DNA of 64,000 bases from Octopus sinensis (lineage: Eukaryota). Made by a program: the position numbers. This document shows, piece by piece, positions 1 to 30,000 of this stretch (position 1 is the first letter of the stretch; the number at the start of each line of letters is the position of its first letter). The stretch is from positions 9,052,001 through 9,116,000 of the forward strand of contig NC_043023.1 in NCBI RefSeq assembly GCF_006345805.1. The letters are read 5' to 3'.

Positions 1-3000
1 TAATTTTTCCACTCCTACTTCCTTTTCTTCTACATCTACATCCAGTTGATTAGACACATGCGTATTTAAAATTTCGTGAATAATCATTTTTATACCATTT
101 CTAACCAATTCTCTTCCAACTTACAGAAATCTAGCCAATAATAAAATAGCGATTATTGAACATGGATCGTTCGAGGGTCTCACCAATTTAGAGAGTGTGT
201 AAGTTTGATCTTCCTGATATTATTAATCTAATTGTATGTTTCTACATATATTGTCTTCCCTTCTATCTTCGCTCTCTCTTTCATCCTCTCTATCAGACTT
301 TCACTTTGTCTGTGTGTGTGTGTGTGTGTGCGCGCGCGTGTATGAAAATGATTAAGGATATGAGTGTTTGTGGGTTACATTTGTTATGTGATTTATATAA
401 ATTTATGTGAACAACGTAACAATTAACGATTAAAGACAAAATTTCCCAATACGGGGGAAAGCCATGTAGGACAACGAGGGGAATACAGAGATTCAGATCT
501 AACAATATTCGACAATTAGGCGTCACTAATTAGAAGTAGAATACACACCCAAGTGAATTCCTCCTGTATGATAAGTAAATTGAAATATCCTATGGCAGAA
601 TTGGGAAAAATTCAGACATTTTTACAACAAACGATAAATAGAGAGAAAGTTGCGTTTAGTATATTTCACATTATAAAGCCTACAATTGTTTATATTTTAT
701 TAACATTGATAAAATCTTCAGTATACAGATGTAGCGGGCGCAACACATAAGGTTGGTAACATAGATGCAAACACAAAGTTACAATGCTTATATACACATA
801 CATATATCTATACATAAATAAAAATATGACGAATCTGAATTGTAAACTGAATTTCGTTGCACTCAATAACATTTTTGTAATAGCAGACAGAGAGGCAGAT
901 TTAAACATGCAGACTCTTTCTCTCTCTCTCTCACACGCACACACATACACGCACACACACACACAGTTGCACACACACTCACACACACACAACACACAAC
1001 CACAAAACAATTTGTAAGTCATACACATGCTCACATACATATATATATATGTAAATATAAATGCGTAACAAACATATATATATATATAGACATATATATA
1101 TATGTATACACACACACACATACACACACACATATATATATAAGAAGTAAAGATAGACGTTATGCTATTCCATGAAAAACAATTTTACAAACGGACGATC
1201 CCACGGCTTTATCGATCACATACTCACCTGAAATCGATTTTTGTAATTTTTTCAAAACTTATGCACGCACTGATAGTAGAAAATAGAGATCAAGTCTTTG
1301 ACTGCAATTTTTAATTTTTCGGTATGTGGCTAAGCAACCTGTTGCCTGCCCCTTTATATATATATGTATATATATATATATATATATATATATATATATA
1401 TATATATATATATATATACATATAAGAGCAATATTAAATCTGTGAGTGAGACGTAAACAGTAGTAGCACGGAATCGTAAAGTATATTTACCACGTGAACG
1501 TATCAGTCCCATAAGGAACGATGCTTCTGGTTTTTATAGCCTCAGGAAGACATCTTCTCCACTTGGCTAATGACACACTATGTCTGATTAGTATTCGTGA
1601 GCGGAAAAAAAAGCATTGCCATCTCTGGCCTTAGGTGATACACACACACCCAGGTTTCGATAACGAGTTACTACCCAGAAATCAGGGCCTGTGTTTATTA
1701 CGTAAAACCAGGGATGGGAACCATGATATTAGTTCGCAAATACAAGACGCAAATACAAGTGGTGTGTTGTTTTGGCAGCTAGTGGAGATGTCATCCTGGG
1801 GCTATAAACAACAGTTGCATTATCCACTATGGGATCGACACACACACACACACATACACAAACACACACACACACACACACACACACACACACACACACA
1901 CATATATATATATATCCTTCTCAATATATATATGTATATTTCACTTCATAGTTTTCTCGTAATCTCCGCTTCAAATTCTATTTTTTGTACTTTTTTTATT
2001 TCATTGTCGTCATAAGCATCATGGCAATGAATGCGATCATCACCGTGTTTGCATCTATGTTACCAACCTTAAATGTTGCGCCCGCTACATCTGTATACTG
2101 AAGATTTTATCTATGTTAATAAAATAGAAACAATTGTAGGCTTTATAATAATTTTGTTCGGATCTATGAAATTTATTATTATTTTAAAGCTTTCGTCCAT
2201 TACTTGATTAAAGTAATTGGGAAACCATTTTCTTGCCTTGGGATTCACGGTCAAATGTCAAGGTGGAATTTCGTGAAAAATTACACAGATGTGTAGAATG
2301 ATCCGGTGGTGTTGCTGGGTTTTGTATTTTTTCATAGCTCCCATGGTTACCGAGATAATCTACTATAATAATACTCTTGTGTTTATGAATGAGAAAGGAA
2401 GAGGTGATTGATGAATAAGGAAGGAAGGGGCAATCTCATACTTGGTAGTGGGATGATGAAAACTCCACGCTGAAAAAAACAAAAAACAGAGTTTTAACTC
2501 TGTGTGAATATATGTGTGTATGTAAAACCAGAGTATGTGAATGTGTGTGCGTGTGAGTGTGTGTGAGTGAATGTGTGTGTGCATGTGATTTTGTGTGTGA
2601 TTTTGTGCACGCGCAATTGAAGTGGGATGGTTAACATTCAATGCTGAAAAGAAAAATCAAACAGCGTTTCAACTCTGTGTTTGGTATTCACTTACCAGCT
2701 CTTGTATTTAGTCACGGCCAGCTTTATGTAGCATTAAGTCGCAAAAGAAGGAAGGAATTTAGTTGCCGATAGATTTTTCTTAAGTTTGGTTGTAAAAAAT
2801 TATTAAAGTAAAAACTTGGTTTTGTACATTATCTACTATAATAATATTCTTGTGTTTTTCTCCGGCAGAACACATGAATGAAAAAGGAAGGAGTGATAGA
2901 TGAATAAAGAAAGAAAGACAAGGCATATTTCGTAGTGGGATGATGGAAGCTGCACAGTGAAAAAGATAATTCAAACAGCGTCTCAACTCTGTGTGAGTTT

Positions 3001-27000: not shown

Positions 27001-30000
27001 AGTTCCTGGATCTTAAGAACTTTCCGGTCCAGAGAACAAGGTGTCATCATACCACTATTCTCCTCCTTCGTACGGCCACACCTCGAATACTGCTGCCCAC
27101 TGTGGTCTCCCCATACAAGACAAAACATCTCGAGGATTGAATCACCCCAGAAGGCATTCACTAAACGAATTGAAAGTATGACTCCTCTCGATTATTGGAA
27201 CCGCCTTAAAGCCTTGAAACTCTACTCTCACCAGCGTTGCCGTGAACGGTACATCATTTGTACGATGTGGAGAATCTACCGCCAACTTTGCCCGAACGAC
27301 CTGAGCATTACTTTCAAGGTTCATCCAAGAATGGGACCACAGGCCATACGTCCCCTGCCCAATTCAAGATCACAGCATACATGTACACTGCAACATAATT
27401 TCTTTTCCTCAACAGGCCCTGCCCTATTTAACATTGTCCCGAAAGAGATCAAAGAGGAAAAGGATCCCATCAACTTTAAACGGAGTCTGGATAGATTCCT
27501 TCAAGGAATACCAGATAAGCCACCCATAATTGGATACAACTCACCCAACAAAAACTCACTACTTGAATGGACCATTAACAAAACTTGACTTAAACAGGAT
27601 TCAAATAATCCTATCAGGCGGTGCTATTAAGTTAGACATGGCCTGGACCAATTTTTTGATATACTGGCCATTGATAAAAAAATTTTTTCCGATAAAAATA
27701 TTATCCTACATTAGATATATATATATACATGAGGTACCTAAAAGTAACCGAAATTATCTCTGTTGGGCAAGCCAGTTGTAGTTTAGGCTTCCTCTGCTAG
27801 AAGCCACTATCAGACATCAGTATGCCGACCGGCATTGTCATTTAGAGTCGTACTGCCACGTGATGTATCGTTGTTTTGCAGTGTTTCTCCCTTATTTATT
27901 GATTTTTGCGATGGCTGAAAAGAGGGAACAGTGTGCTCCCAGGAATTTTCTGATTTCTGCTGGGGAAAACGGCGGCCGAAACTATTGTCATATTTGACAC
28001 AACTGACAAGGACGTTACCAGGAGCAAAGCACAAGTTTATAAGTTGTTTCCACACTTCAAGAATGGTCACTTGTCGCTTGAACAACAACTTCGTTCAGGG
28101 CGACCAATGACTTCCCGAAAGAATGAAAACATCACAAAAGTTCATGAACTCATCTTGGAGGACCGTCATCGAACAATTGAGAAACTTGTTGATACCACTG
28201 CTATGTGTCATAGTGCTCCTGCCGACGGATTGTTTTGTGCGAGGAATTGCAATTGAAAAGAGTTGCAGTGAGAGACAAACAGGGAGACACAGGGAGACAC
28301 AGATAGAGAGAGAAAGACAGTGTCACACAGAAACATAGAAGAAGACACACTGTGTGTGTGTGTCTGTGTGTGTGTGTATGCGTTTTCTTTCACCCCATCA
28401 GCACATTGATGGGGTGAGCGAAACACAAAAGTGTGTGACACAGAGAGAGATTGAGAGAGAGAGACAGAGAGAAAAAGAGAGAGAAAATAGCACAGACAGA
28501 CAGACACAGAGAGACAAAGACAGTGTACGTGTGTGTGTGCGTGTGTGTGTGTGCACACACATACTCACATACTGTCTCTAAACGGATACCCTGTATTTGC
28601 GAAAAAGAAATTTAGAAAGGATTTTACAGTATAAAACATTGTTTTTTTACTTTTACGTATTTTAACTTGTCTTTGATTCTTTCAGAAAGTTGAGCTACAA
28701 CCGTTTACAAAAATTTGATGGCGCTTTCTCATACATTTCCAGCATAAGTGAGATGTATGTACAATAATACTCTTTATTTCTTGGAAAAGTTTAACATTTT
28801 GTAAATCTAACAGCATAAAAAAAGATTATCAAATTCACAAATATTTAATGCAGTTGACAATAAATAATGATGTGTTGGTTTACATTTTAATAAGTCGAAA
28901 TGATTATTTCCGAGTATTGTGTTTAGTCATTGTAAAGTCTGCTTTGAATTGCATGACAGTTGGTTTGATCTAACTTAATCCATGTAAATACACGTAACGT
29001 TAGTGGCCATGTATTTACAGCCTTCACTAGATACGTCCCATGTGACTATGATTTCATTAGCTTCCTCACCTTTCTTATTTACACCTTCTCCAGTTCCATT
29101 TTAATTTCTATAGTTAGTACACTGTGAGATTCTAGTACACCTAGGTACTGATAACTCTCGCATTGTTTCAGTGATTTTAAAGTCTCGTCATCTAGTAATT
29201 GGAGACTTTATTGCTGACCACTTGTCCAGTTTTATGACTAATACTGCACCCTTATCCATGAAAAATCCTATATCTATAAATTTGTTGAAGTGTTTTACAG
29301 TTTGTTTTAAAGAATATCTTTTTTATCCTTGCTAAAAAGGTTCAGATCATCCATGAAGAGCAACTGTTAATTTTTCCTTTACTGTCTCTAAACTGATACC
29401 CTGTATTTGCGAACAATATATAACTATTAATTTTCCCCCCTGTTTATAATGAGTATTCCTTCACAGCCGTATGCCTCAGAAACTGAAAGTGCAAATCGTT
29501 GCTTTTATAGTTTCTACCGCAGTTCATGCATTCCTTTAAGACCAATTGTTACGTAGAATAAAACAACTATCCTAGCACCAAAACATTCCGTCTAAACTGC
29601 TCTTCTGAAAGACACTTTGAAATCACTACCATCAAATTTTCGACACTAAAATACGCCTAATCTACGAAATAATGAAATAATTTCAAGTGACTATGAATTT
29701 TCTTCTTATTTAAAGTGACACTTTTTTATTCAAGCTGTAAGTTATAAGAATGTAGCGATGTAACAACTTTTCAGTTTTCACGAGAACCATTTCTCTTTTT
29801 GTTGTTATTAACACATGGAAAGAAAGAACATGAATGTTGTGACTCCTATACACTTGCTGAAATTATATTAATCATCATTTCTTGTCAACTGCTGCAGGAG
29901 TTTTTCTCTTGTCTGAAGAGTATTCAGATAAAGTTCTGAATGACGGATAGTCATGATAGATATGCTGGGCTTCATATAATTTCCCCCAGTGCTACTTTGA

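What the first reader, a model, noticed from the sequence alone, without database searches (positions are those of the whole stretch)
127..28754. Accordion array of single-LRR exon cassettes in an adhesion GPCR: candidate diversifying recognition receptor
Seen: eight 72-nt, phase 2-2, GT-AG exons, each encoding one 24-aa LRR, in two families (order A1,B1,A2,B2,A3,A4,A5,A6). They sit in near-identical ~9-kb tandem units, and four junctions each drop a cassette. All splice in frame to a unique terminal LRR, LRRCT and a GAIN/GPS domain. Established: symmetric exons can be gained, lost or skipped without frameshift, and LRR concave faces are the variable binding surface in agnathan VLRs and plant NLR/LRR receptors. 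Inference: this receptor varies in LRR number and composition by duplication, deletion and conversion, and possibly by alternative splicing, as expected for an immune, allorecognition or chemosensory receptor.
Basis: partly seen in the sequence, partly recalled or inferred. Interest (0 to 1): 0.9.

Follow-up and report, generated by a model that had tools for sequence, protein, structure and literature searches.

The report
Duplicated LRR exons, octopus adhesion receptor
The window holds the outer half of an octopus adhesion-type receptor gene whose ligand-binding leucine-rich repeats are each coded by a small exon, and a block of these exons has recently been copied several times, which is a real but fairly ordinary way for such receptors to change.

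Summary
Eight 72-nt exons (six A-type, two B-type), each with one open frame, AG/GT borders and phase-2 introns, lie at 127-25251 on the + strand. They sit in a mosaic of repeat segments 96-99% identical, plus older copies at 80-93%. Then come a Ly6/uPAR-like module, a weak HRM match and GAIN/GPS exons up to 63435. The 7TM lies beyond the window.

The nearest proteins are Octopus "ADGRG6-like" receptors. They belong to a large Octopus family whose listed members carry from about three to about twenty LRRs, and some annotated isoforms differ by whole LRRs. This is probably the octopus-specific adhesion-GPCR expansion already published (PMC6408891).

Single-LRR 72-nt phase-2 exons that duplicate are a known design, seen in LH-receptor genes and brown-algal ROCO genes (PMC11378527). 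One signal favours diversification. The B1 and B2 exons differ at 10 of 72 nt against 43 of 3779 in their introns, almost all nonsynonymous. The A exons show none. Immune, allorecognition or chemosensory roles, polymorphism and splicing of this gene remain untested.

The parts
127..198 (+). LRR exon A1 (alpha subtype, ends GT)
   Evidence: 72 nt, ttacag| and |gtaag, one open frame.: 23 of 24 residues identical to an LRR of O. sinensis P0055.
5039..5110 (+). LRR exon B1
   Evidence: 16 of 17 residues identical to the first LRR of O. bimaculoides P0058.
7721..7792 (+). LRR exon A2 (beta subtype, ends TT)
12953..13024 (+). LRR exon B2. It differs from B1 at 10 of 72 nt.
14550..14621 (+). LRR exon A3, identical to A1
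16738..16809 (+). LRR exon A4, identical to A2
19798..19869 (+). LRR exon A5, in an older and more diverged unit
25180..25251 (+). LRR exon A6, the last cassette before the LRRCT exon
6316..15375 (+). One complete repeat unit of about 9.06 kb, with segments b, a' (A2), d, c (B2), e and a (A3). It was used as the reference for the map.
   Evidence: 1-946 matches it at 99.2%, 947-2046 at 95.9%, 2151-6006 at 97.4%, 15786-19238 at 96.1%.
19372..25880 (+). Older, rearranged unit copies (80-93% identical), including one copy of segment a' that lacks its exon (23782-24069 and 24108-24768)
31180..31346 (+). Exon for the last partial LRR plus the LRRCT cysteine cap. Its first base completes the TT left over by A6.
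   Evidence: 52 of 56 residues identical to P0001 and 51 of 56 to P0055. AF2 model of P0055 has block-mean pLDDT 80-97 over residues 1-110.
33972..34063 (+). Ly6/uPAR-like module, exon 1
38529..38712 (+). Ly6/uPAR-like module, exon 2 (Cys-rich)
   Evidence: Atlas structural look-alikes carry UPAR_LY6 or Toxin_TOLIP in 8 of 10 rows. Pfam found nothing for the exon itself.
42038..47007 (+). Three exons of an unassigned extracellular region: 42038-42144, 45185-45237 and 46850-47007
   Evidence: These three exons were not sent to Pfam.
52031..53029 (+). Two exons, 52031-52142 and 52884-53029, with a weak hormone-receptor-motif match
   Evidence: Pfam HRM E=0.01 at 16.6 bits, below the 26.2 cut-off. 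P0011 carries PF02793 in its precomputed domain list.
54623..62650 (+). GAIN-region exons 54623-54842, 55221-55392, 57850-57996 and 62516-62650
   Evidence: P0001 residues 401-929 and 441-942 align to ADGRG6 and ADGRG2 chains.
63295..63435 (+). GPS exon, the last exon in the window
   Evidence: Pfam GPS E=1.4e-16, 61.2 bits

Best explanation
The window carries the extracellular-domain half of one member of an Octopus-lineage family of adhesion GPCRs. The family layout is signal peptide, LRRNT, n LRRs, LRRCT, a Ly6/uPAR-like module, HRM, GAIN/GPS, then an ADGRG-like 7TM.

The LRR solenoid is coded one repeat per 72-nt exon between phase-2 introns, so any number of these exons can be added, lost or skipped without shifting the frame (shown). 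A block of about 9 kb carrying three such exons (A-alpha, A-beta, B) was duplicated in tandem within the gene. The newest copies are 96-99% identical, and some copies lack one exon-bearing segment. This gives the present order A1,B1,A2,B2,A3,A4,A5,A6 (shown). The likely driver is unequal recombination between the 88%-identical a and a' segments (inferred).

The result is a longer LRR arc in front of the LRRCT (inferred, no cDNA). The B cassette pair has taken on mostly nonsynonymous changes in and next to the beta-strand positions, either by selection or by small conversion patches (inferred).

By homology, ligand binding on the LRR arc would be passed through the GAIN/GPS tethered-agonist mechanism to the 7TM (inferred, and the 7TM is not in the window).
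For: - Exon anatomy and copy count.
- Repeat map.
- In-frame continuation through 13 further exons with AG/GT borders, at 74-98% identity to P0001.
- GPS in the window: Pfam E=1.4e-16.
- P0001 has LRR_8, GPS and 7tm_2. Its GAIN/7TM is closest to ADGRG2 and ADGRG6 chains, E about 1e-60.
- Family: 53 proteins at E<=1e-5 among 6939 candidates, and 49 of the 53 carry Octopus names.
- Full-length members show the SP-LRRNT-LRRn-LRRCT layout and internal 2-, 3- or 4-LRR super-repeats (P0022, P0003, P0016). Multi-exon LRR duplication is therefore recurrent in the family.
- 5 of 6 pairs among the four distinct A sequences have pN below pS.
- The B type is conserved in the first LRR of O. bimaculoides P0058, 16 of 17 residues.
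- B1/B2: 10 of 72 exon differences against 43 of 3779 intronic, Fisher p=2.8e-8. No intronic 72-nt window has more than 5. The split is 9.5 nonsynonymous to 0.5 synonymous.
- P0055 (O. sinensis) is identical to the window over the next three exons but differs at 5 of 56 LRRCT residues and in its LRR set. With one intron-border residue that I dropped, that is 0 differences in 129, p=0.002. On the raw tblastn count it is 1 in 131, p=0.0097.
Against: - There is no transcript evidence for this gene.
- The two closest full models are 5'-truncated. By my reading, P0001 starts at a Met inside an intron-derived stretch and P0002 starts inside the LRRCT. P0055 is partial. How many cassettes enter the mRNA is therefore unknown.
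- Signal peptide, LRRNT and 7TM are all outside the window.
- A-type exons diverge at about the rate of their introns, p>=0.32 in 15 of 15 pairs. That also fits young, nearly neutral copies.
- Cross-species pairs show no LRR-specific acceleration. In P0022/P0023 the LRR region differs at 4.2%, against 7.6% for LRRCT, 9.4% for Ly6 and 2.3% for 7TM.
- The B1/B2 signal is a single pair, and its changes come in runs that a conversion tract from an unseen copy would also produce.
- The correctness of the assembly cannot be tested here.
Confidence: 0.75

Rival explanations
1. The array is maintained as a diversity generator. LRR number and composition are polymorphic among individuals and varied by alternative splicing, because the receptor recognises variable targets (immune, allorecognition or contact chemosensory).
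For: - B1/B2 exon-focused nonsynonymous divergence.
- LRRCT and LRR set are the only parts that differ from the near-identical O. sinensis P0055.
- LRR number runs from about 3 to about 20 among the members listed.
- Annotated isoforms differ by exactly 24 or 72 aa.
- Passages read in PMC6408891 report an octopus-specific adhesion-GPCR expansion with expression in axial nerve cord, suckers and skin (gills in C. minor) and signs of positive selection.
Against: - No population or cDNA data exist for this gene.
- A cassettes show no excess divergence and mostly pN below pS.
- There is no LRR-specific acceleration in two cross-species pairs.
- The isoforms are database predictions for paralogues, and reads mis-mapped between near-identical exons could create them.
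- Variation at the x positions of LRRs is generic to the fold.
- That this family is the paper's group 3 is my inference. The supplementary gene lists were closed.
Confidence: 0.25
2. The duplicated cassettes are young, selectively near-neutral by-products of a repeat-rich, recombination-prone intron region. Some are skipped or will decay, so the 'accordion' has no adaptive meaning.
For: - A exons diverge like their introns in 15 of 15 pairs.
- Two exon pairs are still identical.
- One unit copy has already lost its exon.
- The introns are full of microsatellites and transposon remnants.
- The nearest gene models show only 2-3 LRRs before the LRRCT.
Against: - 8 of 8 copies keep both splice sites and the open frame, including the copies in units 80-93% identical to the reference.
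- 5 of 6 distinct A pairs have pN below pS.
- The B exon is the most diverged 72-nt stretch of a 3.9-kb duplicate, and its changes are nonsynonymous.
- Long LRR arrays with super-repeats are present in other annotated family members.
Confidence: 0.3
3. Assembly artefact: the near-identical units are falsely duplicated haplotypes or mis-joined reads.
For: - 1-1392 and 14424-15823 are 99.0% identical, and two exon pairs are identical.
- The homologous O. sinensis models are truncated, and one sits on a contig of about 45 kb. Both fit a region that is hard to assemble.
Against: - There are no N gaps in the window.
- Three different offsets (about 7.9, 9.0 and 14.4 kb) and graded identities (99, 97, 96, 88-93%) form a mosaic that one false duplication would not produce.
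- Most copies differ by 2.6-4%, plus indels.
- Paralogues show the same kind of LRR super-repeats at protein level in three species.
Confidence: 0.07

Closest known systems
Octopus-specific adhesion-GPCR expansion ('group 3' of Ritschard et al. 2019, PMC6408891; passages read)
   Same: It is a class B adhesion GPCR family with GPS and 7TM, restricted to octopuses. [quoted passage not shown] P0012, an O. bimaculoides family member found here, has a Death domain at E=3.3e-6. The family forms tandem gene clusters.
   Different: As far as I read it, the paper works from 7TM-based trees and does not describe the exon structure, the intragenic LRR-exon duplications, the spread of LRR number or the Ly6-like module. 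Identity of the two families is inferred, because the supplementary gene lists were closed.
Single-LRR 72-nt phase-2 exon genes: gonadotropin (LH) receptor genes and brown-algal LRR-ROCO genes (PMC11378527; passages read)
   Same: One LRR per exon, 72 bp, phase 2, with intragenic exon duplication or shuffling. In the brown-algal genes there are also alternatively spliced LRR combinations and positively selected concave-face sites.
   Different: The downstream signalling module differs (rhodopsin-type 7TM or ROC-COR, against GAIN/GPS with a class B 7TM). Here the duplication unit is a multi-exon block of about 9 kb that is still 96-99% identical.
Vertebrate LRR-bearing adhesion GPCRs ADGRA2/ADGRA3 (GPR124/GPR125); their domain layout is recalled, not from a call
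   Same: N-terminal LRRs with an LRRCT, ahead of HRM, GAIN and 7TM.
   Different: No Ig domain was detected here. The GAIN/7TM of P0001 is closest to ADGRG2 and ADGRG6 chains, and no ADGRA chain appears among the 60 rows shown. A Ly6/uPAR-like module follows the LRRCT.
Agnathan variable lymphocyte receptors (mechanism recalled, not from a call)
   Same: LRR modules flanked by caps. VLR chains appear among the sequence matches to the P0001 LRRs.
   Different: VLR cassettes are non-spliced donor fragments copied somatically into an incomplete gene. Here every cassette is an ordinary exon with AG/GT borders, and nothing points to somatic assembly.
Dscam-type arrays of duplicated alternative exons (recalled; mentioned in PMC11378527)
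   Same: Tandem arrays of duplicated, in-frame exons inside one receptor gene.
   Different: Dscam exons are mutually exclusive and code Ig half-domains. LRR cassettes can be used additively, and no splicing data exist for this gene.

Membership tests
Adhesion GPCR (class B2) | GPS motif at the end of a GAIN domain | tested here: met
   Window exon 63295-63435 matches Pfam GPS at E=1.4e-16, 61.2 bits against a 22.5 cut-off. The upstream exons align to the GAIN region of P0001, which in turn aligns to ADGRG2 and ADGRG6 chains.
Adhesion GPCR (class B2) | Secretin-like 7TM (PF00002) directly after the GPS | tested here: inconclusive
   The window ends 565 nt after the GPS exon, so the 7TM cannot be seen. 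The closest full proteins, P0001 and P0002, carry 7tm_2. For P0001 this was tested at E=1.5e-36. For P0002 it comes from the precomputed domain list.
Adhesion GPCR (class B2) | Long extracellular region made of adhesion-type modules | tested here: met
   Eight LRR exons, an LRRCT and a Ly6/uPAR-like module.
ADGRA subfamily (GPR124/125-like) | LRR-LRRCT-Ig-HRM architecture with an ADGRA-type 7TM (layout recalled) | tested here: not met
   No Ig domain appeared in Pfam scans of P0001, P0003, P0004, P0010, P0012, P0016 or P0022. The best PDB sequence matches of the GAIN/7TM are ADGRG2, G6, G4 and G3, and no ADGRA chain is among the 60 rows shown.
ADGRG6 (GPR126) orthologue, as the database names suggest | CUB and pentraxin modules in the N-terminal fragment (recalled) | tested here: not met
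   Pfam scans of seven family members found LRR, LRRNT, GPS, 7tm_2 and in one case Death, but no CUB or pentraxin. The likeness is limited to HRM, GAIN and 7TM.
Typical 24-residue extracellular LRR | LxxLxLxxNxL core with 24-residue period, capped by an LRRCT | tested here: met
   LRR_8 scores E=3.5e-21 in P0055, whose LRRs are 75-96% identical to the A exons. The AF2 model of P0055 has one short beta-strand per 24 residues and block-mean pLDDT 80-97 over LRRs and LRRCT.
Single-LRR symmetric-exon genes (LH-receptor / brown-algal ROCO type) | One LRR per 72-nt exon, with phase-2 introns on both sides | tested here: met
   8 of 8 exons. The comparison text is in PMC11378527.
VLR-like somatically assembled LRR receptor | Donor cassettes without splice sites, flanking an incomplete germline gene | tested here: not met
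   8 of 8 cassettes have canonical acceptor and donor sites and a shared phase.
Alternatively spliced cassette array | Transcripts of this gene with different cassette sets | not testable with these tools
   There is no RNA data. Only predicted isoforms of paralogues differ by 24 or 72 aa.
Ly6/uPAR three-finger domain | Three-finger fold with the conserved cysteine framework | tested here: inconclusive
   In the family alignment 7 cysteines are invariant and 8 more are nearly so across the LRRCT and Ly6-like stretch. Pfam gave no hit on the window exons and only Toxin_TOLIP at E=0.0098 in P0022. My AF2 model is poor there, with block-mean pLDDT 35-62. Atlas structural look-alikes carry UPAR_LY6 or Toxin_TOLIP in 8 of 10 rows, TM by query 0.62-0.77.

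The most novel reading that the evidence does not exclude
These LRR adhesion GPCRs are germline-polymorphic and combinatorially spliced. On this reading, octopus skin, suckers and arm nerve cord use them as contact recognition receptors, for example in the still unidentified skin-to-sucker self-recognition system (Nesher et al. 2014, seen only as cited in PMC9339708). The LRR-exon accordion would be the source of individual-specific or target-specific binding surfaces.
Probability: 0.06. Interest if true: 0.85.

Novelty: new member of a known kind. Interest (0 to 1): 0.38.

Why it matters
The window catches an LRR receptor while its binding domain is still growing. The duplicated multi-exon units are still 96-99% identical, some copies have already lost an exon, and one cassette pair is already diverging at the protein level.

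This gives a concrete, testable locus for asking three things about the octopus-specific adhesion-GPCR expansion. Does it vary between individuals? Is it alternatively spliced? In which tissues is it used? It also points to an unusual ectodomain layout for an adhesion GPCR (LRR, LRRCT, Ly6/uPAR-like).

It does not reveal a new principle. Symmetric single-LRR exons and their duplication are textbook features.

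Tried and rejected
- First motif scans: a strict LxxLxLxxNxL regex found no LRR exon, and a filtered AG-72-GT scan printed only 2 of the 8 exons. The exons were recovered through the repeat register.
It was repeated with the 37-40-aa stop-to-stop frames around the same exons.
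- The listing of cluster members for isoform names and accessions: not available, so isoform labels rest on the names.
- Fuzzy regex scan for degenerate exon copies: timed out. It was replaced by an ungapped scan, so copies with indels could be missed.
- Pfam on single window exons: only GPS passed its cut-off, HRM was below cut-off, and 7 of 9 exons gave nothing.
- AF2 model of P0055, meant to confirm the Ly6-like fold: confidence was too low in that part, so no fold search was run on it.
- tRNA scan for the origin of the SINE-like repeat: 0 genes.
- Pfam on eight intronic ORFs: 2 hits (RVT_1, DDE_3) and 6 with none.
- Literature: searches for octopus plus adhesion GPCR plus LRR returned only PMC6408891 as relevant. 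'octopus' plus 'receptor G6-like' returned 0 papers. A search for sea-urchin LRR adhesion GPCRs in immunity gave nothing usable (PMC6208332 passages read). I recalled such an expansion but could not confirm it.
- Considered and rejected: a VLR-like somatic system (splice sites are present), ADGRA membership and ADGRG6 orthology (see the membership tests).
- Not used: the genome-contig collection (described as bacterial and archaeal genomes only), the search of protein representatives (it gives no names or taxa), complex prediction (no binding claim is made).

Full report
**Observation**

The window is 64,000 nt with no N. It is AT-rich (GC 0.25-0.43) and full of microsatellites. The repeat register led to six A-type exons, and a mismatch search led to two B-type exons. 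Their coordinates are A1 127-198, B1 5039-5110, A2 7721-7792, B2 12953-13024, A3 14550-14621, A4 16738-16809, A5 19798-19869 and A6 25180-25251.

In 8 of 8 the exon is exactly 72 nt, follows '...ttacag' and precedes 'gtaag'. Only one frame is open in each. The first base finishes a codon and the last two bases begin one, so the introns on both sides are phase 2. The split codon reads TT+A or GT+A, which gives Leu or Val at a core position of the next repeat. Each exon codes a canonical 24-residue LRR.

An ungapped scan with an A and a B exon found exactly these 8 places at 40 or more matches of 72. All were on the + strand, none on the - strand. The 12th-best score, just below the eight copies, was 34. 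A and B exons share 44-46 of 72 nt.

**Repeat architecture**

Self-comparison and mapping onto one full unit, 6316-15375, give this picture:

| Window segment | Unit part | Exon carried | Identity to reference |
|---|---|---|---|
| 1-946 | a | A-alpha | 99.2% |
| 947-2046 | b | none | 95.9% |
| 2151-6006 | c | B | 97.4% |
| 6109-6297 | e | none | 98.4% |
| 6316-15375 | full unit | A2, B2, A3 | reference |
| 15786-19238 | b, a', d | A4 | 96.1% |
| 19372-25880 | older pieces | A5, A6 | 80-93% |

- Four discontinuities each lack an exon-bearing segment, near 2046/2151, 6297/6316, 19238/19372 and 24069/24108.
- The last of these leaves a copy of a' without its exon.
- Whether each gap is a deletion or a duplication of different extent cannot be told.
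- Segments a and a' are 88-89% identical over about 1.1-1.3 kb. They are obvious substrates for unequal recombination, though that role is inferred.
- The 99% duplicate begins at window base 1, so the array may continue upstream.

**The gene**

The spliced model was searched exon by exon, and the joined step was left out.

The GPS-exon translation found two proteins among 3 candidates. They are P0001 (O. sinensis, 970 aa) and P0002 (O. vulgaris, 899 aa), both named 'adhesion G-protein coupled receptor G6-like'.

A local tblastn of these proteins on the window, plus reading of the borders, gives 13 further + strand exons with AG/GT borders:
- last partial LRR plus LRRCT at 31180-31346
- a Cys-rich Ly6/uPAR-like module at 33972-34063 and 38529-38712
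- three unassigned exons at 42038-42144, 45185-45237 and 46850-47007
- two HRM-like exons at 52031-52142 and 52884-53029
- GAIN exons at 54623-54842, 55221-55392, 57850-57996 and 62516-62650
- the GPS exon at 63295-63435

Pfam confirms GPS in the window (E=1.4e-16). It gives a sub-threshold HRM match (E=0.01) and nothing for 7 of the 9 window exons tested. P0001 has LRR_8, GPS and 7tm_2. Its GAIN/7TM matches ADGRG2 and ADGRG6 chains at about 1e-60. The window stops before the 7TM, and it shows no signal peptide or LRRNT.

**The family**

P0001 retrieved 53 proteins at E<=1e-5 among 6939 candidates. Of these, 49 carry Octopus names (vulgaris, sinensis, bimaculoides), 3 are unnamed and 1 is an amphioxus LRRCT protein covering 6% of the query.

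Complete members read SP, LRRNT, n x 24-aa LRR, LRRCT, Ly6-like module and so on to GPS and 7TM. The number of LRRs ranges from about three (P0004) to about twenty (P0016) among the members listed.

Several members contain super-repeats of 2, 3 or 4 LRRs (P0022, P0003, P0016). Duplication of multi-exon LRR blocks is therefore recurrent in this family and not peculiar to this window.

Comparisons between family members that bear on LRR number:

| Pair | Identical aligned residues | Gaps |
|---|---|---|
| P0039 / P0040 | 844 of 844 | one 72-aa gap (3 LRRs) |
| P0018 / P0024 | 1250 of 1250 | a 24-aa gap (1 LRR) and an 89-aa gap |
| P0022 (O. sinensis) / P0023 (O. vulgaris) | 1201 of 1250 | a 48-aa gap (2 LRRs) |

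These are database predictions, and I could not retrieve their accessions or support.

**Nearest relatives of the cassettes**

A profile of the stop-to-stop frames around the six distinct exons returned 17 proteins at E<=1 among 1899 candidates. Two of them are informative.

P0055 (O. sinensis, partial, 255 aa, on a contig of about 45 kb):
- It is identical to the window over both Ly6-like exons and the next exon.
- It differs at 5 of 56 LRRCT residues.
- It carries a different LRR set: one type absent from the window, one A variant and one alpha-like A.
- With one intron-border residue that I dropped, this is 5 of 56 against 0 of 129 (Fisher p=0.002). On the raw tblastn count it is 5 of 56 against 1 of 131 (p=0.0097).
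- Whether P0055 is an allele, an orthologue or a very recent paralogue cannot be told here.

P0058 (O. bimaculoides):
- It has SP, LRRNT and a first LRR that matches B1 at 16 of 17 residues.
- The B type is therefore an old, conserved coding cassette.

**Selection tests**

I compared each exon with 400 nt of intron on either side, or 126 nt upstream for the pairs that include A1. The 15 A-type pairs show no excess (p 0.32-1.0). B1/B2 shows 10 of 72 against 13 of 800 (p=2.7e-7).

Over the whole 3.9-kb duplicate the intronic rate is 43 of 3779, giving Fisher p=2.8e-8. No intronic 72-nt window has more than 5 differences.

The ten changes lie in two runs at the exon ends plus one in the middle. 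They amount to 9.5 nonsynonymous and 0.5 synonymous changes, with pN 0.179 and pS 0.032. By my mapping they hit repeat positions 5, 7, 8, 18, 1' and 2', which are mostly on and next to the beta-strand.

Among the four distinct A sequences, 5 of 6 pairs have pN below pS, with ratios 0.22-0.55. The sixth is 1.09.

Against an LRR-specific arms race, P0022/P0023 differ at these rates by region:

| Region | Divergence |
|---|---|
| LRR | 4.2% |
| LRRCT | 7.6% |
| Ly6-like | 9.4% |
| mid/GAIN | 3.1% |
| 7TM | 2.3% |

P0001/P0002 differ throughout. The diversification signal therefore rests on one cassette pair and one LRRCT comparison. Clustered changes would also arise from short conversion tracts.

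**Comparison with what is known**

Passages of PMC6408891 describe an octopus-specific expansion of adhesion GPCRs ('group 3'):
- The genes cluster in tandem.
- Expression is in axial nerve cord, suckers and skin, and in gills in C. minor.
- The paper reports signs of positive selection.

P0012 here is an O. bimaculoides member with a Death domain. I take the families to be the same, but the supplementary lists were closed.

Passages of PMC11378527 describe brown-algal ROCO genes with 72-bp phase-2 LRR exons, exon shuffling, alternative splicing and concave-face positive selection. They also recall that gonadotropin-receptor genes have similar-sized LRR exons and phase-2 introns. The design principle is therefore known.

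What I did not find in print is the exon-level LRR dynamics or the LRR-LRRCT-Ly6-like ectodomain of this octopus family.

The Ly6/uPAR assignment is a lead, not a proof. It rests on conserved cysteines, a weak Toxin_TOLIP hit in P0022 and Atlas structural look-alikes in 8 of 10 rows. My own model is poor there.

**Verdict**

The structural interpretation is right: symmetric single-LRR exons, recent intragenic duplication and loss, an in-frame link to LRRCT and GAIN/GPS, and an adhesion GPCR by close homology. The functional interpretation (diversifying immune, allorecognition or chemosensory receptor, polymorphism, splicing of this gene) is a reasonable but untested hypothesis with one suggestive signal.

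It is a new, well-preserved example of a known evolutionary mechanism in an already reported gene expansion, and of moderate interest.

**Unchecked**
- assembly correctness
- transcripts of this gene
- other octopus genomes
- the upstream and downstream parts of the gene
- paper supplements
- cluster member names

Noticed in passing
window 33972-34063 and 38529-38712 (+): A Cys-rich module between the LRRCT and the HRM-like exons looks like a Ly6/uPAR three-finger domain, which I do not recall from adhesion-GPCR ectodomains. P0018 appears to carry two such modules (two Cys-motif hits, 89-aa isoform gap).
   Followed up: partly
window 29940-31205: A tract of about 1.25 kb of imperfect 3- and 9-nt repeats, reading as poly-Asn or poly-Ile in open frames. 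It ends just before the LRRCT exon at 31180 and is a likely hotspot for slippage or assembly trouble next to a coding exon.
   Followed up: no
window 26380-27588 (+): A reverse-transcriptase fragment (Pfam RVT_1, E=6.8e-9, for 26380-26922) sits in the intron between A6 and the LRRCT exon. The adjoining ORF 26923-27588 has no Pfam hit.
   Followed up: partly
window 59140-59898 (-): A 252-aa ORF with a weak DDE_3 transposase match (E=4.3e-5, below the cut-off) lies in a GAIN-region intron. It is probably a Tc1/mariner-type remnant.
   Followed up: partly
window 31457-31861, 42207-42437, 52375-52605, 60617-60847: A dispersed repeat of about 230 nt with 5 copies at 60-84% identity to the reference copy (family D12), often next to microsatellites. 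It looks like a SINE. ARAGORN found no tRNA gene in the window.
   Followed up: partly
P0055 (O. sinensis, contig of about 45 kb) against window 31180-42144: This partial protein is identical to the window over three exons but has a different LRRCT (5 of 56 residues) and a different LRR cassette set. It could be an alternative haplotype, a sister-species orthologue or a very young paralogue.
   Followed up: partly
P0012 (O. bimaculoides paralogue): It has a C-terminal Death domain after the 7TM (Pfam E=3.3e-6). That is an unusual intracellular tail for an adhesion GPCR, and it matches the remark in PMC6408891.
   Followed up: no
window 34000-38000: This stretch is richer in GC (0.43 against about 0.25-0.39 in the other 2-kb bins) and has many 60-125-aa ORFs on both strands. 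The two I tested (35855-36139 and 36129-36437) have no Pfam match. It may be a decayed mobile element inside the Ly6-module intron.
   Followed up: partly
P0001 and P0002 N-termini: Both nearest full gene models are 5'-truncated. P0001 begins with residues that read as intron-derived just before an A-type LRR, and P0002 begins inside the LRRCT. The LRR arrays of this subfamily seem to be poorly captured by current annotations.
   Followed up: partly
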